From Thermoproteota archaeon (GTDB lineage: Archaea; Korarchaeota; Korarchaeia; Korarchaeales; Korarchaeaceae): a DNA stretch of 38,603 nucleotides. Each line of letters opens with the position of its first letter. The stretch's first letter is position 1. Made by a program: the position numbers and the translations under genes. The notes beneath the pieces were generated by a model. The model saw only the letters and a list, made by a program, of their open reading frames with translations. It made no database searches and had not been told where the DNA came from. This document shows positions 18,115 through 33,785 of this stretch, piece after piece. The DNA is taken from NCBI GenBank assembly GCA_037917625.1, contig JAVCBY010000033.1, positions 1 to 38,603 of the forward strand. The letters are read 5' to 3'.

Positions 18115-18797
18115 TCTCCTTGAGGATAGCCTATCTGGGATGGAACTATCACGGAGTAGTCGAGCAACCGAACCTCCCCACTGTGGGCTCAGCTCTGAGG
18201 GAGGCGATGGAATCTCAAGGCATAAGGGCGAAACTCAAGTTCACATCGAGAACGGATAGAGGAGTATCAGCATTGGACAACATAGCTTTCTACAGAGGTC
18301 CAGCCCCTAATATATCTCTCTTGAACTCAGAGCTCCCGAAGGATATAGCGGTATGGGCTGTGGCTACTGGAGGCATACCTAAGCCTAGGGCTAGAGCGTA
18401 CTGCTACGCGATCCCATTCAGGCTGAGCAGTGCTGAATGCGTGAGGGAAGCGTTAGATGAACTAACGCAGGAGGGTTTAGGGAAAAATATTGAGAATTTT
18501 GACGTGAAAATTGGAGAAAATTTTACATATATTGAGATTTATGGGAAATCATTTAAAAAGAATGAGATAAGGAGGATCGTGGGTAGAGCGTTAGAGCTTC
18601 ATCTCGGGAGGAGTATAGGGCTGGCCCCTCCAGAAGGGCTAGTCCTCACTAGAACTGTGGCCGATGTACGCTGGGAAGAGTTCCATAGGAGGAAGCTCCA
18701 CATAATTGGAAAAATTATTGAAAGAGAGTTGTGGAGGCTCGAGTCCTCCAGAGTGATCCTCGGACTCATAAATTCTATCTCTTCGTCGCTATTATAG
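18099..18797 (+). CDS. truA: tRNA pseudouridine(38-40) synthase TruA
   Basis: IAY-G--Y-G---QP---TV, SRTD-GVSA (catalytic Asp), LN--LP-DI-V, SF----IRRIVG, APPEGL-L motifs. Confidence 0.88.
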   Translation: MARDVVSLRIAYLGWNYHGVVEQPNLPTVGSALREAMESQGIRAKLKFTSRTDRGVSALDNIAFYRGPAPNISLLNSELPKDIAVWAVATGGIPKPRARAYCYAIPFRLSSAECVREALDELTQEGLGKNIENFDVKIGENFTYIEIYGKSFKKNEIRRIVGRALELHLGRSIGLAPPEGLVLTRTVADVRWEEFHRRKLHIIGKIIERELWRLESSRVILGLINSISSSLL

Positions 18798-19053
18798 TCC
18801 TAGTCTCCGGGACGTACCACCTCACTTTATCCCTGAACCACTTCCAGAATCTAGTGAAGGAGTCCATGCTCTCAGACTCTAGAACCATTATCCCGTTGTA
18901 CTCAGTTCCCCATGCGTGGTCATATACTCCAATGAGTCTAACTTCAGGAGGCCATCCCTCCGTTATCTTCTCCCACTCGTTCCTAGCTCTCTCCTCCTCC
19001 TCAGGAGTGAGCTCCTTCAATTTGTATAACACGAAGTATATGTAGGTCGGCAT
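18775..19053 (-). CDS. Small hypothetical protein, probable ferredoxin-like/dimeric alpha-beta barrel fold
   Basis: 92 aa, GGTG RBS-like site, TTATATA about 30 nt upstream, beta-alpha-beta-beta-alpha-beta pattern; no family recognised with certainty. Confidence 0.7.
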   Translation of the reverse strand: MPTYIYFVLYKLKELTPEEEERARNEWEKITEGWPPEVRLIGVYDHAWGTEYNGIMVLESESMDSFTRFWKWFRDKVRWYVPETRTIIATKR

Positions 19054-19140
19054 GCTAGCACCCAGGAGTATCGCTCTAGAAAGTATATAATGTTAAGATC
19101 TTCATTGGGAGGGGGTGCAATTCCCTCCATTGTGAGGGCT

Positions 19141-19245
19141 CATCGGGTATACGCTACCGCTCTGGTCTAGTGTTAACTTTCATCCCTTCCCCCCTCCCGT
19201 CATGGGAGGGCTTTCGGGGTGAACGGATGAGGACCCCACGTTCAT
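19141..19245 (-). ncRNA. Putative omegaRNA/right-end RNA scaffold (plus candidate guide) of the tnpB remnant
   Basis: GTGGGGTCCTCATCCGTTCACCCCGAAAGCCCTCCCATGACGGGAGGG. Pairings: GGGGT/ACCCC stem, CCCTCCC/GGGAGGG hairpin, TCATCC/GGATGA, and CCGTTC/GAGCGG with the likely element end near 19157. Confidence 0.6.
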
Positions 19246-19390
19246 TCGCATCTGGGGAGCAGGTTCACAGCTATTATGTCCCTGCTCCAGAGCATCTACA
19301 CTTCACCCGCCTATACCCATTCGTGCTTAACTTTCCCCCACATATCGGGCACAGGCTTGAAGCCCCCCTAGTTTCTCTGGTATCAACAAT
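19242..19390 (-). pseudogene. tnpB: Remnant of an IS200/IS605-family tnpB 3' end (zinc ribbon + RuvC-III)
   Basis: Minus-strand translation IVDTRETRGASSLCPICGGKLSTNGYRRVKCRC, then a frameshift to SRDIIAVNLL*. This matches the TnpB pattern tS--CP-CG...C--C...RD--Aa-Nl. No start codon or N-terminal portion. Confidence 0.8.
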
Positions 19391-19412
19391 CTGAGGTTAC
19401 TACAGCTAATGC

Positions 19413-19424
19413 TAATAAACTTAA
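19413..19424 (-). promoter_or_regulatory. TATA-like element upstream of the tnpB remnant
   Basis: TTAAGTTTATTA on the minus strand, similar to AAAGTTTATA upstream of tRNA-Thr(CGT); about 25-30 nt upstream of 19390. Confidence 0.45.
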
Positions 19425-19426
19425 CA

Positions 19427-20941
19427 CTAAACGGAAGCAGCTTTCAGCCCCACGGGGCACTCAATCATGCACTTAGAGCAAAATTCATCACAAGATAGTA
19501 GAGGCCACCCATTCTTCGCTCTCTCATACTCCCTCCTGATGAAATCCTTAGATATATTATCGACGTAATCCCACCAAGGTGCCTCCCTCTCCCCGTAGAC
19601 TATCCGATCGGGATCTATGCCTAAGTCCATCGCTATCGATCTATAGATCCACCTGTTGAACGGTCTCTTGTATCCCCTCTTCAAGATCTCACTGACCTCA
19701 AAGCCCCCTAGGGAGAGAAGAGCTTGTACATAAGCCCTACCATAATGAGAAATGTTTAGCTTCCCTCTATATCCCTTCCAGAGGATGGAGAGCCTCCTCC
19801 TGAAATCAATCTCTCTGATCAGGGGAGAAAGCTCGAAGGGCGTCCCAGCTTTTGGGACGAATACGCTGAGGGTGACCTTCGCCCTCAATATGGAATTGAT
19901 CTTTCTAGCGAGCTCAGCGGATTCGATTACATCGGATTCTTGCTCAAAGGGGAGCCCTATCATGAAATAGAGTTTTATATGCCCCATCCCTACATCCCTA
20001 GCTTCTTCAGCAGCTCTAATGATCTCATCATTGTCTATCCTCTTGTTAATTATTCCCTTCAACCTATCGCTTCCCGTTTCAGGGGCTATAGTTATCATCC
20101 TTCCCCCTGTCCTCCTTATTAGATCGAGGAGCTCGCTATCCACTTGATCAGCTCTTATGGATGGGATACTTGCCCTCATCCCTCTTTCAGCTATCTCCCA
20201 AAGCGTATCCTTTATCGCTTTTGAAGAAGCTGCATCAGATCCTATTATAAAAATTTCCCTAAAGCCCAGATCCGAAGCATATTCTATAGCTTCCCTCACC
20301 TCGTTCATCGGGGCATCTAAACGCGGTCTCCAATGCCATCCTATACCGCAGAACCTGCACCCCCACCCGCATCCTCTGGATATCTCCAAGAGGAATTTAT
20401 TGAGCGTGACTCCACCCTCCAAGACCCTTATTTGGTCACGCAAGGGGCTCAAACGTGGAGTTCTATTGAACTTAGCCTTATTCTTGAGCTCATATACGAA
20501 GAACTTCGGGGGGAGGGATGCGATCCCTTCATCCTTGACCTTGAGGATCTCCTCTATGAGCACCTCAAAATCTCCTAGACCCACTGCAGAGACAAGAGGG
20601 CTTATAGGAAGTGGGTTAAAGCTAACAGCGGGTCCTCCAACTAATACAGGTTTTTTCAAACCTTCAATCATCCTCAGTAATTCTGGATACTGCCCCTCAA
20701 AATGCAAAGTTGCTAAGACTATATCGAATTCATCTAGAGGCCTACCGCTTTCCACAGAGCCATTGAGGTCGCTCACGAACCTCTCGGCCATAACGCTATC
20801 GATGGAGTTCATCAGGAAGTAGAGGATCTGATGCCCCAAGGAGCTCACAGCTACTCTGTATGGACCCGGGTAGATGATGGCGACCCTGAGCTCGAAGTCC
20901 CTAGGGTCTCTATCGTAAAATCCCCCCTCCTCAATGGGCAT
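19427..20941 (-). CDS. Radical SAM protein, B12-binding-like N-terminus (COG1032-like)
   Basis: YP--Y----SSLG, VGGP----NP-P, EISRGCGWGCRFC, SIRAD, TIAPETGS-RL---INK, KLYFMIGLP-E, FVPK--TPF motifs; C-terminal Cys cluster. Confidence 0.88.
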   Translation of the reverse strand: MPIEEGGFYDRDPRDFELRVAIIYPGPYRVAVSSLGHQILYFLMNSIDSVMAERFVSDLNGSVESGRPLDEFDIVLATLHFEGQYPELLRMIEGLKKPVLVGGPAVSFNPLPISPLVSAVGLGDFEVLIEEILKVKDEGIASLPPKFFVYELKNKAKFNRTPRLSPLRDQIRVLEGGVTLNKFLLEISRGCGWGCRFCGIGWHWRPRLDAPMNEVREAIEYASDLGFREIFIIGSDAASSKAIKDTLWEIAERGMRASIPSIRADQVDSELLDLIRRTGGRMITIAPETGSDRLKGIINKRIDNDEIIRAAEEARDVGMGHIKLYFMIGLPFEQESDVIESAELARKINSILRAKVTLSVFVPKAGTPFELSPLIREIDFRRRLSILWKGYRGKLNISHYGRAYVQALLSLGGFEVSEILKRGYKRPFNRWIYRSIAMDLGIDPDRIVYGEREAPWWDYVDNISKDFIRREYERAKNGWPLLSCDEFCSKCMIECPVGLKAASV

Positions 20942-20955
20942 GTTCCCCTCCCAAA

Positions 20956-21028
20956 TGGGCCGGGGGGGACTCGAACCCCCGACCTCCGCCTCGTAAGGGC
21001 GGCGTCATAGCCACTAGACCACCGGCCC
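20956..21028 (-). tRNA. tRNA-Val(TAC)
   Basis: GGGCCGG acceptor, CCGCC-CT-TAC-GA-GGCGG anticodon arm, GGGGG-TTCGAGT-CCCCC T arm; CCA not encoded. Confidence 0.96.
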
Positions 21029-21116
21029 TGGCGCCGGGGGAGGGATTTGAACCCTCGCGGCCCAGTGGGCCACTGGCTTAGCAGGCCAGCCCCCTACCGA
21101 GCTAGGGCACCCCGGC
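21029..21116 (-). tRNA. tRNA-Ser(GCT)
   Basis: GCCGGGG acceptor, CTGGC-CT-GCT-AA-GCCAG, long variable arm GGCCCACTGGGCC, TTCAAAT T loop, G discriminator followed by encoded CCA. Confidence 0.96.
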
Positions 21117-22462: not shown

Positions 22463-22485
22463 GGTGAATATTACTCTCTACTGAA

Positions 22486-22560
22486 GCCCCGGTAGCTCAG
22501 CTCGGTCAGAGCGGCCGCCTCGTAAGCGGCAGGTCGCGGGTTCGAATCCCGCCCGGGGCT
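22486..22560 (+). tRNA. tRNA-Thr(CGT)
   Basis: GCCCCGG acceptor, GCCGC-CT-CGT-AA-GCGGC, GCGGG-TTCGAAT-CCCGC; no encoded CCA. Confidence 0.96.
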
Positions 22561-22749
22561 TCACGATATATCACGCGTAAACTCAAATAAGCTTTTCTAT
22601 TGTGGGTTATGTCATGAATGCTCAAAGCATCTCAAATGGGTGCCCAAAATATAACTAAATAGAGTTAAGGGTAAATAGATTTCTTTATGATACCGTTAAA
22701 TAATAAATTCCTATATTGAAGCTATCGGAAAACTCACTAGTAGCTAGGA

Positions 22750-22823
22750 TGGGGCCGCCGGGATTTGAACCCGGGACCTCCGGCTCCCAAGGCCGGCATC
22801 CTACCTAGCTAGACCACGGCCCC
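22750..22823 (-). tRNA. tRNA-Pro(TGG)
   Basis: GGGGCCG acceptor, CCGGC-CT-TGG-GA-GCCGG, CCGGG-TTCAAAT-CCCGG; TTTATTA about 25 nt upstream; no encoded CCA. Confidence 0.96.
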
Positions 22824-26316: not shown

Positions 26317-26637
26317 GGGGGCGGTGGGGTAGGACCGGGGGGGTAGCCGTCCCCTCAACCGGAAGGCTAATGCCGGGGTCAGCAACTCCCGGGGGCGAGT
26401 TGATGGTAGGGGATCTCCATCTCCTCCTAACTGATGAACCCCGGTCCCGGTGGACCGGCGGTGGTGATAACCCATCCGGAGGGATGGGGAATCACCTTCG
26501 CCACCGAACCGGGTCAGGCCCGGAAGGGAGCAGCCCTAAGGTGGACGTTCGGTGCTGCCGGGTAACTGGGGGAAGGGGATGGGGAGAATGGGGAAACCTG
26601 ATCCATTAACTCCACCTCGGGGGAGCCCACCGCCCCC
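26317..26637 (+). ncRNA. ffs: Archaeal SRP (7S) RNA
   Basis: Helix 8 GGGTCAGGCCCGGAAGGGAGCAGCCC; helix 6 CCCATCC-GGAG-GGATGGG; ends GGGGGCGGTGGG/CCCACCGCCCCC pair (helix 1); about 320 nt; TTTTTAA overlapping the rpiA stop upstream. Confidence 0.95.
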
Positions 26638-33654: not shown

Positions 33655-33727
33655 GCCCCGGTAGCTCAGTCGGCAGAGCGGCCGCCTTGTAAGCGGCAGG
33701 TCGGGGGTTCGAGGCCCCCCCGGGGCT
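33655..33727 (+). tRNA. tRNA-Thr(TGT)
   Basis: GCCCCGG acceptor, GCCGC-CT-TGT-AA-GCGGC, GGGGG-TTCGAGG-CCCCC; no encoded CCA. Confidence 0.95.
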
Positions 33728-33785
33728 CTCCCCTACAAACTCGAGTTGATGATTTCAAAAGCTTTTAAATTTAAGTTCAAAAATT

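What the first reader, a model, noticed from the sequence alone, without database searches (positions are those of the whole stretch)
19141..19424. Decayed tnpB with apparently intact omegaRNA scaffold and its own TATA box: possible orphan guide RNA
Seen: only about 50 frameshifted codons of the TnpB C-terminus remain. The downstream RNA still keeps all visible pairings (GGGGT/ACCCC, CCCTCCC/GGGAGGG, TCATCC/GGATGA, and CCGTTC/GAGCGG with a G-U pair). A tRNA-like TATA lies just upstream, while the next gene has a separate TATA. Established: TnpB uses an RNA overlapping the tnpB 3' end and right end, with flanking sequence as guide. Inference: a stand-alone guide RNA (candidate guide from about 19156, TAGCGTATACCCGATG...) loaded in trans by a TnpB or a domesticated derivative, or a non-autonomous element. 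I saw no match to the guide in this window.
Basis: partly seen in the sequence, partly recalled or inferred. Interest (0 to 1): 0.7.

Follow-up and report, generated by a model that had tools for sequence, protein, structure and literature searches.

The report
Miniature IS607 transposon carrying guide RNA
This is a 292-base stripped-down copy of an archaeal jumping gene that has lost its enzymes but kept its promoter, both ends and an intact-looking guide-RNA gene; this kind of element is already known, and here no partner nuclease was found in the assembled genome.

Summary
Two same-genus genomes carry the empty site, which fixes both ends. The insertion sits at a GG between the last codon and the stop codon of a radical-SAM gene.

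The element has a left end with a conserved TATA-like box, joined to the last ~215 nt of tnpB. In this family those 215 nt also encode the omegaRNA scaffold and form the right end. Full-length relatives carry a serine recombinase, and the junctions have GG cores, so the family is IS607, not IS200/IS605.

The window copy keeps 24 of 24 tested pairs.

The MAG (84% complete) shows no TnpB, serine TnpA or Y1 TnpA. The guide matches only its own flank. The 5' half evolves about four times faster than the flanks.

Verdict: a non-autonomous IS607 mini-element carrying a stand-alone omegaRNA. This kind is known (stand-alone omegaRNAs, PATEs). Present-day activity is unproven and probably absent.

The parts
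19157..19448 (-). Whole mini-element, 292 bp including one copy of the GG core
   Evidence: Empty sites in L020 (G016) and L036 (G012): the flanks align at 87-92% identity, and 5 bp replace the 296-bp gap.
19449..19452 (-). TGGG on the left flank: the integration target / TAM-like motif, whose last GG is the left core dinucleotide
   Evidence: Read. GG(G) precedes the left end in the 9 copies where I could place it by alignment. The TGGG target and TAM of an IS607 element are described in 10.1101/2023.11.20.567912.
19393..19448 (-). Left end proper. It also supplies the last seven codons and the stop codon (19427-19448) of the radical-SAM gene.
   Evidence: Homologous to the left ends of full-length elements L019, L045, L047, L049 and L051, and to the motif upstream of tnpA_S in L068, L075 and L076.
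19412..19419 (-). TATA-like box (TTTATTAG) with an A-rich stretch upstream. This is the element's own promoter-like box.
   Evidence: Conserved in position in relatives' left ends and in other minis. Promoter activity is inferred, not shown.
19417..19432 (-). Left arm of a 16-nt subterminal inverted repeat (candidate recombinase-binding site)
   Evidence: Pair I1, 14 of 16 complementary with 19165-19180. A motif in the same position scores 12-14 of 16 in 4 of the 7 elements checked.
19361..19392 (-). Junction zone between the left end and the tnpB 3' fragment. The breakpoint cannot be placed to the base.
   Evidence: Alternative alignments. Five of the 8 differences from the orthologous strain L085 lie here.
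19157..19360 (-). tnpB 3' remnant, which is also the omegaRNA scaffold gene and the right end
   Evidence: Protein and DNA matches; 32-copy alignment A1. The RNA fold has MFE -83.3 kcal/mol, z -4.33, and 0 of 200 shuffles fold as well.
19310..19355 (-). Helix H1: 19347-19355 pairs with 19310-19318.
   Evidence: A1 columns 27-35 with 65-76. One pair shows AU:10, GC:7, CG:6, GU:3. All pairs are kept in the window.
19216..19237 (-). Helix H2: GGGG 19234-19237 pairs with CCCC 19216-19219
   Evidence: All 4 pairs have changes on both sides; cells are 96.9% paired.
19190..19209 (-). Helix H3: 19205-19209 pairs with 19190-19194.
   Evidence: All 5 pairs have changes on both sides.
19221..19226 (-). 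Pseudoknot 5' arm CCGTTC, inside the H2 loop
   Evidence: Pairs with 19157-19162. Cells are 95.8% paired with no double changes in A1. The second family has GGGTTC with GAACCC.
19157..19162 (-). Right-end terminus GAGCGG: the pseudoknot 3' arm, ending in the GG core
   Evidence: GAACGG is near-invariant across the 32 copies. The window's A-to-G change at column 303 is its only departure in the 3' part, and it keeps a G-U pair.
19165..19180 (-). Right arm of the subterminal inverted repeat
19137..19156 (-). Flank immediately 3' of the right end. This is the would-be 16-20 nt guide, identical to the ancestral target site.
   Evidence: It is the only match in the MAG at up to 4 mismatches in 20 nt. 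The exact 16-mer has 0 matches in viral contigs.
19427..20941 (-). Host radical-SAM gene whose 3' end receives the insertion
   Evidence: Pfam Radical_SAM 1.2e-20 and Radical_SAM_N2 7.5e-13. In sister genomes the protein ends ...CPIG or ...CPMR; here it ends ...CPVGLKAASV.
18775..19053 (-). Downstream host gene (92 aa, weak NIPSNAP-like match) with its own TATA-like box at 19084-19091

Best explanation
Window 19157-19448 (minus strand) is a 292-bp non-autonomous derivative of an IS607-family insertion sequence (serine recombinase tnpA_S plus tnpB).

Anatomy. The element keeps the left end: a subterminal repeat, a TATA-like promoter box, and a few tens of bases beyond. An internal deletion removed tnpA_S and the first ~310 codons of tnpB. 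The last ~215 nt of tnpB remain. In this family those bases do three jobs at once: they code the zinc finger, RuvC-III and the C-terminal tail; they encode the omegaRNA scaffold (helices H1-H3 and a pseudoknot that ends in the terminal GG); and they form the right end.

Insertion. The element was integrated by serine-recombinase crossover at the GG of a TGGG, immediately before the stop codon of a radical-SAM gene.

Expected function (inferred). If transcribed from the left-end box, the element would yield an omegaRNA whose 3' guide is the adjacent flank, starting at 19156. With a cognate TnpB supplied in trans, that RNA would direct cleavage of the empty allele (TGGG plus flank), so that repair restores the element. 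That is selfish retention.

What is shown and what is inferred. Shown: the boundaries, the homology of both ends, the RNA structure conserved with covariation, and the intactness of that structure here. Inferred: transcription, loading by TnpB, and cleavage.

Present state. No TnpB or transposase is in the assembled genome, so the copy is most likely a stranded, currently inert mini-element. Its guide-RNA module still looks intact. I lean about 65:35 that it transposed as a mini rather than being deleted in place.
For: Boundaries. Two same-genus genomes have the flanks joined directly...GGG|TAG.... Each of the last six right-end columns shows one base in 31 or 32 of 32 copies, and sequence diverges right after them. 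Metagenome contigs with varied flanks break at 19156 (table 7).

IS607 type. L076 has a 205-aa Resolvase + HTH_17 gene overlapping the tnpB start. The left-end motif lies upstream of that gene in L068, L075 and L076. GG occurs at both junctions with no duplication, and the left flank reads TGGG. This matches the IS607 rules in 10.1101/2023.11.20.567912.

Left end. It is homologous to the left ends of L019, L045, L047, L049 and L051, including the TATA-like box.

RNA structure. 24 pairs were tested on 32 copies: 96.0% of cells paired, 12 pairs with compensatory changes, and 0 of 500 shuffles as good. Slid controls gave 31-59% paired. The window keeps 24 of 24 pairs. It departs from conserved columns at 1 of 37 in the 3' part against 9 of 56 in the 5' part (Fisher p 0.047).

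Mini architecture elsewhere. Three loci in G017 (L023, L030, L037), one metagenome locus (L087) and the window's ortholog (L085) are collinear with the window copy. A second mini family has 5 copies in this MAG.

Inertness. No TnpB over cut-off, no TnpB protein match outside the remnant, and no TnpA_S or Y1 TnpA. Against strain L085, 19270-19448 shows 8 mismatches in 179 nt; the flanks show 52 differences in 4775 nt (p about 0.001).
Against: Completeness. The MAG is 84% complete in 116 contigs, and repeats assemble poorly, so a missing TnpB or TnpA_S does not show absence. The same metagenomes hold many related copies, including some that continue as full-length tnpB.

No sister copy. No copy of this exact lineage was found at another locus: 0 in the MAG, and 0 metagenome hits for a junction 20-mer. 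Transposition as a mini is therefore not shown for this copy.

Junction. The junction cannot be placed to the base.

Weak contrast. The 5'-versus-3' conservation contrast is only marginally significant, and it falls to p 0.14 if two junction columns are dropped.

Missing comparison. No orthologous comparison exists for the 3' scaffold (19157-19269), because the L085 contig ends at 19270.

Promoter. Promoter activity is inferred. The TATA-like box overlaps the subterminal repeat, so its conservation may reflect recombinase binding instead.

Right end. The right-end terminus carries an A-to-G change at a position that is A in the other 31 copies. This might impair recombination.
Confidence: 0.85

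Rival explanations
1. Active stand-alone guide RNA. The element is transcribed, and its omegaRNA is loaded in trans by a TnpB, or a nuclease-dead derivative, encoded elsewhere in the same cell. It then does something now: retention of the element, or regulation.
For: All 24 tested scaffold pairs are intact, and only 1 of 37 conserved 3' columns is changed. A conserved TATA-like box lies upstream. Stand-alone omegaRNAs are reported to work in trans (passage in PMC10691335; PATE remark in 10.1101/2023.03.14.532601). Related full-length tnpB copies exist in the same metagenomes.
Against: No TnpB-like gene passes the cut-off in the MAG. The guide matches nothing but its own flank in the MAG, and the exact 16-mer matches nothing in viral contigs, so no trans target suggests regulation. 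The 5' half, including the stretch between the TATA-like box and H1, evolves about four times faster than the flanks.
Confidence: 0.15
2. In-place decay. A full-length tnpB-only or tnpA_S-tnpB element inserted here and later lost its interior by deletion. The 292 bp never moved as a mini-element.
For: No second copy with this junction was found in the MAG or in the metagenome scan. The only pattern hit of this lineage is the same locus in another strain (L085). Further small deletions of 10, 3 and 1 nt show ongoing decay.
Against: The architecture is collinear with minis at four other loci: three in G017 plus L087. The distance from the TATA-like box to the zinc-finger codons differs by about 2 nt in the alignment. 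An in-place deletion would have to reproduce this by chance or by the same microhomology. The MAG also holds 5 copies of another mini family, so minis do spread in this lineage.
Confidence: 0.35
3. Host exaptation without TnpB. The left-end promoter-like box and the structured RNA now serve the host. They might act as a read-through promoter or leader for the downstream 92-aa gene, as a 3' UTR or terminator, or as a new C-terminus for the radical-SAM gene.
For: The element is co-oriented with both neighbours. It supplies the radical-SAM gene's last codons and stop. It sits about 100 nt upstream of the next gene. The insertion is shared by strains about 1.2% apart and is bridged at both junctions by contigs of two metagenome runs.
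Against: The downstream gene keeps its own TATA-like box, and the same promoter region exists in the empty-site genomes. The sister species do without the insertion. The 5' half evolves fast. No expression data are available.
Confidence: 0.07
4. The element belongs to IS200/IS605 (Y1 TnpA, single-strand peel-and-paste), not to IS607.
For: The full-length relative in the genus (L019) and several others carry tnpB alone, which looks like IS1341. A weak OrfB_IS605 match exists.
Against: Relatives with an intact transposase carry a serine recombinase, and their left-end motif lies upstream of it. The tnpB-only forms keep scraps of its N- and C-termini. GG cores occur at both junctions next to TGGG. 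No Y1 TnpA is in the MAG. TnpA_S is found in 4 of 5 same-genus genomes searched.
Confidence: 0.04

Closest known systems
Stand-alone omegaRNAs and PATE-like minimal IS elements. Sources: Altae-Tran 2021 as cited in PMC10691335 (the passage read; the 2021 paper itself was not read) and Meers et al. preprint 10.1101/2023.03.14.532601 (passages).
   Same: A mobile-element derivative with both ends and no protein gene that still encodes the guide-RNA scaffold. It depends on a nuclease and a transposase supplied in trans.
   Different: The described cases are bacterial, mostly IS200/IS605 or IscB, and sit in genomes that also hold the effector. Here the host is archaeal, the family is IS607, and no effector is in the (incomplete) assembly.
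IS607-family elements with TnpA_S, such as CboIStron (10.1101/2023.11.20.567912, passages)
   Same: Serine recombinase in full-length relatives. GG core dinucleotide at both junctions. TGGG-like target equal to the TAM. No target duplication. The guide is the flank beyond the right end.
   Different: There is no group I intron. Here a 16-nt subterminal inverted repeat is present. The window copy has lost both genes.
RAGATH-18-type reRNA of bacterial IS607 TnpB (ISFba1; PMC11061315, passages)
   Same: An IS607-associated guide RNA with stem-loops and pseudoknots, with the guide at the 3' end.
   Different: That paper says its reRNA is independent of the coding sequence. Here the whole scaffold lies inside the tnpB 3' coding region (L019's ORF ends 10 nt, and L044's 23 nt, before the right end). 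Rfam gives no match for the window or for L044.
sotRNAs of archaeal IS1341-type tnpB genes (PMC4615843; only the search listing and the start of the abstract were seen)
   Same: A non-coding RNA overlapping the 3' end of an archaeal tnpB in sense.
   Different: Those are described in full-length haloarchaeal genes. Here the gene body is gone.
TldR-type domesticated TnpB with guide RNA (10.1101/2023.11.30.569447; search listing and start of abstract only)
   Same: This would be the model for a regulatory rather than a selfish use of an omegaRNA.
   Different: It needs a nuclease-dead TnpB gene next to the guide and a target in a host promoter. Neither is present here.

Membership tests
IS607-family element (derivative) | Serine recombinase TnpA_S encoded upstream of or overlapping tnpB in autonomous members | tested here: met
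   Met in relatives. L076 carries a 205-aa Resolvase (8.6e-25) + HTH_17 gene overlapping the tnpB start. C-terminal scraps lie before tnpB in L031, L043, L044, L046, L048 and L050. The gene is deleted in the window copy.
IS607-family element (derivative) | Identical core dinucleotide (GG) at both junctions, no target-site duplication, TGGG-like target | tested here: met
   The empty sites read ...GGG|TAG. The occupied site reads ...GTGGG|G...GAGCGG|TAG.... The rule comes from passages of 10.1101/2023.11.20.567912.
IS607-family element (derivative) | Ends recognised and recombined by TnpA_S | not testable with these tools
   Only candidate sites were found: a 16-nt subterminal inverted repeat, 14 of 16 complementary.
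TnpB omegaRNA (OMEGA guide RNA) | Encoded at the tnpB 3' end and right end, with a scaffold structure conserved across copies | tested here: met
   A1 has 32 copies. 96.0% of cells are paired, 12 of 24 pairs are compensatory, and 0 of 500 shuffles are as good. The window keeps 24 of 24 pairs.
TnpB omegaRNA (OMEGA guide RNA) | The guide is the sequence just beyond the right end; the target is a TAM plus that sequence | tested here: inconclusive
   The boundary and the TAM-like TGGG are established. Use of the flank as a guide cannot be tested here.
TnpB omegaRNA (OMEGA guide RNA) | The RNA is expressed | not testable with these tools
   No RNA run was available for this stretch.
TnpB omegaRNA (OMEGA guide RNA) | A cognate TnpB is present in the same genome | tested here: not met
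   PF07282 gives 0 of 15 weak matches over the cut-off. TnpB proteins hit only the remnant. The MAG is 84% complete, so this is 'not found', not 'absent'.
MITE / PATE-like non-autonomous element | Both transposon ends, no protein-coding capacity | tested here: met
   Left end and right end are homologous to those of full-length elements. The remnant is broken over three frames.
MITE / PATE-like non-autonomous element | Several copies of the same deleted form at different loci | tested here: inconclusive
   There are 0 sister copies of this lineage. The same architecture occurs at 3 loci in G017 and in L087. Whether they share one ancestral deletion is unresolved.
Rfam families (including RAGATH-18 and other IS-associated RNAs) | Covariance-model match | tested here: not met
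   No match at gathering score in the window. The only hit at E up to 10 in 18900-19600 is a chance snoRNA hit on the other strand. L044 has none at E up to 1.
IS200/IS605 (Y1 TnpA) element | Y1 transposase in autonomous relatives; insertion 3' of a TAM with subterminal hairpins | tested here: not met
   The relatives whose upstream gene I examined carry a serine recombinase or its scraps. No Y1 TnpA is in the MAG. Relatives were not searched for Y1 TnpA.

The most novel reading that the evidence does not exclude
Guide-RNA-only minis may persist, and even multiply, in archaeal genomes that lack a cognate TnpB. Two observations fit: this MAG has at least 6 minis of two families and no TnpB, and the 99%-complete genome G017 has 3 minis with no full-length match to the cognate TnpB. 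Such persistence could arise if the left-end promoter plus the structured RNA has a use independent of TnpB. It might act as a mobile promoter or leader module reading into the downstream gene. Alternatively, the minis might parasitise distantly related TnpBs. Two unrelated mini families keep a fragment that starts about 30-35 nt upstream of the first zinc-finger cysteine codon. That shared position would then mark the true 5' edge of a self-sufficient RNA module.
Probability: 0.1. Interest if true: 0.6.

Novelty: new member of a known kind. Interest (0 to 1): 0.3.

Why it matters
The result gives a cleanly bounded natural example, with empty sites, of an archaeal IS607-derived mini-element whose only content is a promoter-like box and an omegaRNA gene.

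It also defines an omegaRNA family that has no Rfam model and lies wholly inside the tnpB reading frame. One helix is written over the zinc-finger codons, and the pseudoknot ends in the recombination core dinucleotide.

That is useful for three things: annotating such remnants, delimiting a minimal ~215-nt scaffold for this TnpB clade, and studying how guide modules outlive their nucleases.

It does not change the current picture. Stand-alone omegaRNAs and PATEs are already described.

Tried and rejected
- Rfam: nothing at gathering score. The only hit at E up to 10 is a chance snoRNA hit on the other strand. Nothing for L044.
- RNA evidence: no RNA holder was listed for this stretch, so expression could not be examined.
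- Junction-specific 20-mer in metagenome contigs: 0 hits.
- Guide 16-mer in viral contigs: 0 exact hits. Only exact matches were searched. Plasmid and phage collections were not searched.
- A weak tblastn hit in contig C48 proved to be a family-B DNA polymerase, not TnpB.
- Similarity between the guide flank and the H1 arm (D1 and I5): my rough hand estimate expects about 2 such matches by chance in a region this size, so I dropped it.
- Co-variation between left-end and right-end repeats within elements: the window scores 14 of 16 with its own end against 11-12 with others, but L047 scores 14 with L019's right end too. This is too weak to use.
- My early note that the window and G017 deletions were independent is withdrawn. 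Later alignments are collinear across the junction.
- No structure prediction or complex prediction was run. None would bear on the question.
- Supplements of the cited papers were closed. Lists of stand-alone omegaRNAs or archaeal IS607 RNA models may exist there.
Full report
CONTEXT

The window is contig C52 of an archaeal MAG: 1.22 Mb, 116 contigs, 84% complete. The finding lies in the 373-bp spacer between two minus-strand genes. One is a radical-SAM gene at 19427-20941 (Pfam Radical_SAM 1.2e-20). The other is a 92-aa gene at 18775-19053.

THE OBSERVATION

The minus strand carries TnpB C-terminal sequence spread over three reading frames: the CPICG...C.C zinc finger, RDIIAVNLL, and a C-terminal tail.
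- Searching the MAG with an intact 389-aa TnpB from a same-genus genome (L019) hits only this place (E 6.7e-9; tblastn E 3.7e-12).
- The closest intact relative, L044, gives E 1.8e-14.
- Against L044 the window copy lacks 10, 3 and 1 nt, which explains the frame changes.

So the remnant is real, and it amounts to about 70 codon-equivalents.

BOUNDARIES

Two same-genus genomes, G016 (L020) and G012 (L036), have the two flanks joined directly.
- The flanks align at 87-92% identity on both sides, and 5 bp stand where the window has 296 bp.
- Read at the joints, the empty sites are ...CCTATAGGG|TAGC... and ...CCTATGAGG|TAGC....
- The window reads ...CCCGTGGG|G CTGAAAG...CCAGAGCGG|TAGCGTATACCC....

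The inserted DNA is therefore 19448..19157, 292 bp counting one of the two GG copies.

It sits between the last sense codon and the TAG stop of the radical-SAM gene. That gene now ends inside the element (...CPVGLKAASV instead of ...CPIG or ...CPMR).

Two further results fix the right end independently:
- Each of the last six right-end columns (GAACGG; GAGCGG in the window) shows one base in 31 or 32 of 32 aligned copies, and sequence diverges right after them.
- Metagenome contigs with differing flanks all break at 19156 (table 7).

WHAT FAMILY

DNA matches occur in 10 of 40 other genomes searched at E up to 0.01, 8 of them among 20 of the same genus. A scan of species-representative genomes with the L019 TnpB gave 39 loci in MAGs. 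Their record titles span several archaeal phyla, with up to 88% protein identity.

Evidence that the family is IS607:
- In L076, a 205-aa gene with Resolvase (8.6e-25) and HTH_17 domains overlaps the tnpB start.
- In L031, L043, L044, L046, L048 and L050, the C-terminal scrap of such a gene precedes tnpB.
- The left-end motif of the tnpB-only elements is found about 630 nt upstream of tnpB, before the recombinase gene, in L068, L075 and L076.
- The junctions show GG at both ends and no duplication, and the left flank reads TGGG.

This is the IS607 pattern described experimentally for CboIStron: GG core, TGGG target equal to the TAM, a dsDNA circle, and 40-bp left and 60-bp right ends sufficing (passages of 10.1101/2023.11.20.567912).

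GG(G) precedes the left end in the 9 copies where I could place it by alignment. Only the window's left end is verified by an empty site.

ANATOMY OF THE WINDOW COPY

Left end (19448 to about 19393). It is homologous to the left ends of L019, L045, L047, L049 and L051.
- It includes a TATA-like box at 19412-19419 that is conserved in position. In full elements this box would drive tnpA_S-tnpB.
- It overlaps the left arm of a 16-nt subterminal inverted repeat, 19417-19432 with 19165-19180, 14 of 16 complementary.
- A motif in the same position is seen in 4 of the 7 elements checked.
- Its conservation could therefore reflect recombinase binding as well.

Junction zone (19361-19392). Alternative alignments disagree by up to about 20 nt, so I do not place the breakpoint to the base.

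Retained 3' fragment (down to 19157). It is about 215 nt long. In intact relatives the tnpB frame runs to 10 nt (L019) or 23 nt (L044) from the right end. The scaffold is therefore inside the coding region, not downstream of it.

RNA STRUCTURE

Which sequences went into the alignment:
- 43 loci plus the window had a C-terminal match, 44 sequences in all.
- I dropped six: L049, L066 and L074 (cut short by contig ends), L037 (truncated by a tRNA gene), L034 (near-duplicate of L033), and L063 (only the first 24 residues of the fragment matched).
- I dropped six more whose right end the alignment did not identify: L024, L025, L026, L033, L041 and L071.
- That left 32 sequences (A1).

RNAalifold finds three helices. 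On those helices plus the pseudoknot, 24 pairs in all:
- 96.0% of 757 cells are standard pairs.
- 12 pairs carry changes on both sides.
- 0 of 500 shuffles reach any of the five measures.
- Sliding the partners by 1-3 columns drops pairing to 31-59%.

Helix by helix:
One of its pairs shows AU:10, GC:7, CG:6, GU:3.
- H2 (GGGG/CCCC) has double changes in 4 of 4 pairs.
- H3 (CCCTCC/GGAGGG) has double changes in 5 of 5 pairs.
- The pseudoknot (CCGTTC in the H2 loop with the terminal GAACGG) is 95.8% paired but has no double change within A1. The second mini family (see below) has GGGTTC with GAACCC at the equivalent places. That is a compensatory switch tied to a different core dinucleotide. I read this by eye and did not test it formally.
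It is not supported.

The window copy keeps 24 of 24 pairs. It folds with MFE -83.3 kcal/mol and z -4.33. No Rfam family matches the window or L044. It is therefore not the RAGATH-18 type of IS607 RNA, which its describers say lies outside the coding sequence (PMC11061315 passages).

IS THE SCAFFOLD BETTER KEPT THAN THE CODING REMNANT?

Against columns conserved in at least 90% of the other copies, the window departs at 9 of 56 in the 5' part and at 1 of 37 in the 3' part.
- Intact copies show 0-5 departures in the 5' part and 0-7 in the 3' part.
- Fisher p is 0.047, and 0.14 if two junction columns are dropped. This is suggestive only.

An orthologous copy exists. Metagenome contig L085 is the same locus in a strain 98.8% identical over 4957 nt.
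- Within 19270-19448 there are 8 mismatches in 179 nt.
- In the flanks there are 49 mismatches plus 3 gaps in 4775 nt (p about 0.001).
- Five of the 8 mismatches lie in the junction zone. None lies in H1 or in the terminal 50 nt of the left end.
- The contig stops at 19270, so the 3' scaffold has no orthologous comparison.

The fair reading is that the interior 5' part drifts about neutrally. The ends and helices may be constrained, but the numbers are small.

MINI-ELEMENT OR IN-PLACE WRECK?

Evidence for a mobilised mini:
- G017 has three copies at different loci (L023, L030, L037) with one common form: left end, then the tnpB start codon fused to the Y-V-E-A codons just before the zinc finger.
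- A gapped pattern scan of metagenome contigs returned 6 loci. Four are the G017-type loci in related assemblies, one is the window's ortholog L085, and one (L087) is a further locus of the same architecture.
- All are collinear with the window copy. The distance from the TATA-like box to the zinc-finger codons differs by about 2 nt in the alignment.

Evidence against:
- No second copy of the window's own lineage was found. The MAG has none, and a junction 20-mer gave 0 metagenome hits.

I lean 65:35 that the element moved as a mini.

PARTNERS

- In the MAG, PF07282 gives 15 weak matches and none over the cut-off.
- No TnpA_S was found and no Y1 TnpA.
- Same-genus genomes do have these genes: TnpA_S in 4 of 5 searched, and PF07282 over the cut-off in 4 of 5.
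- G017, at 99% completeness, has 3 minis and two full-length TnpA_S genes. Its only TnpB over the cut-off is a 445-aa protein. None of its four loci fetched with the window's DNA shows a full-length match to the L019 TnpB. I did not compare the 445-aa protein with L019.
- In two hot-spring metagenome runs, contigs of this organism bridge both junctions at depth about 15-27. The element's conserved parts pile up to summed depths in the thousands, and some contigs continue past 19367 as full-length tnpB. Related active-looking elements are therefore in the community, but they cannot be assigned to this genome.

THE GUIDE

The 20 nt beyond the right end match only themselves in the MAG at up to 4 mismatches. 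The 16-mer has no exact match in viral contigs. This is expected. In these elements the guide is the ancestral target flank, and its natural target is the empty allele (TGGG plus flank) that excision regenerates.

MECHANISM

Shown:
- A bounded IS607-type mini with left end, omegaRNA module and right end.
- An RNA structure conserved with covariation, and intact in this copy.

Inferred:
- Transcription from the left-end box.
- Loading by a cognate TnpB in trans.
- Cleavage of the vacated site, so that repair restores the element. This follows the model in 10.1101/2023.03.14.532601 and 10.1101/2023.11.20.567912.

Without TnpB and TnpA_S, the copy can neither move nor defend its place.

COMPARISON WITH WHAT IS KNOWN

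- Stand-alone, mobilised omegaRNAs that work in trans are stated in PMC10691335 (passage, citing Altae-Tran 2021, which I did not read).
- PATEs that 'often encode omegaRNAs' acted on in trans are stated in the Meers preprint.
- Three literature searches turned up no description of archaeal IS607-derived minis or of this RNA family. That is weak evidence of absence, and supplements were closed.

I file the finding as a new member of a known kind. Interest is 0.3.

Noticed in passing
G000 contigs outside the window: C22:13187-13533 (+), C64:1134-1501 (+), C39:14834-15125 (-), C31:3117-3405 (+), C66:3908-4227 (-); loci L092, L096, L098, L100, L102: This is a second mini-element family with 5 copies in this MAG, about 78-93% identical across aligned segments. 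Three copies share a further ~60-nt internal deletion. Each has a left end with TATA-like boxes fused to a TnpB C-terminal remnant (C.RCG...CKKCG...DRQLNAAIN) of a different TnpB clade. The right end reads ...CTCAGAACCC and the left end starts GCCGTAG, which suggests a CC core. A full-length relative exists in G015 (the open frame at the match in L093 is 289 aa), and G015 has 17 DNA matches. The two best sub-threshold PF07282 hits are these minis.
   Followed up: partly
window 19427-19448: The radical-SAM gene's last seven codons and its stop codon are supplied by the element's left end. The protein ends ...CPVGLKAASV here, against ...CPIG and ...CPMR in the two empty-site genomes.
   Followed up: yes
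window 19310-19355; C22:13265-13305: Dual coding: helix H1 of the omegaRNA is written over the first zinc-finger cysteine codons of tnpB. The unrelated second family has an equivalent hairpin (TGCTCC...GGAGCA) at the same codons. Both mini families keep a fragment that starts about 30-35 nt upstream of the first cysteine codon.
   Followed up: partly
window 19240-19307; L023, L030 (G017): One X2 metagenome contig skips 68 nt (19240-19307). The G017 minis lack the same stretch, the second CxxC and the RuvC-III codons between H1 and H2. This part of the RNA gene therefore seems dispensable for persistence of the minis.
   Followed up: no
L043-L081 (genome contigs): This TnpB clade occurs in hot-spring and hydrothermal MAGs. 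Their record titles span Nitrososphaeria/Thaumarchaeota, Bathyarchaeia, Korarchaeia, Jordarchaeia, Baldrarchaeia, Archaeoglobi, Thermococcaceae and others. Protein identity to the same-genus copy reaches 88%, which looks like horizontal spread.
   Followed up: no
L045, L047, L051 (upstream of tnpB): The 'tnpB-only' elements of this family keep the recombinase's first codons (M.EKLY...) and last codons (...KVV..V) between the left end and tnpB. They are therefore internal-deletion derivatives of the two-gene IS607 form, not a separate IS1341-type lineage.
   Followed up: partly
window 26322-26632; 20956-21116; 22485-22562; 22750-22823; 33655-33728: Ordinary RNA genes: archaeal SRP RNA (178.7 bits) and five tRNAs (Val-TAC and Ser-GCT adjacent, Thr-CGT, Pro-TGG, Thr-TGT).
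   Followed up: no
L037 / L083 (G017 locus): One G017 mini is cut off after helix H2 and abuts the 3' end of a tRNA gene on the opposite strand. The cause may be truncation by a later event at a tRNA-adjacent site.
   Followed up: no
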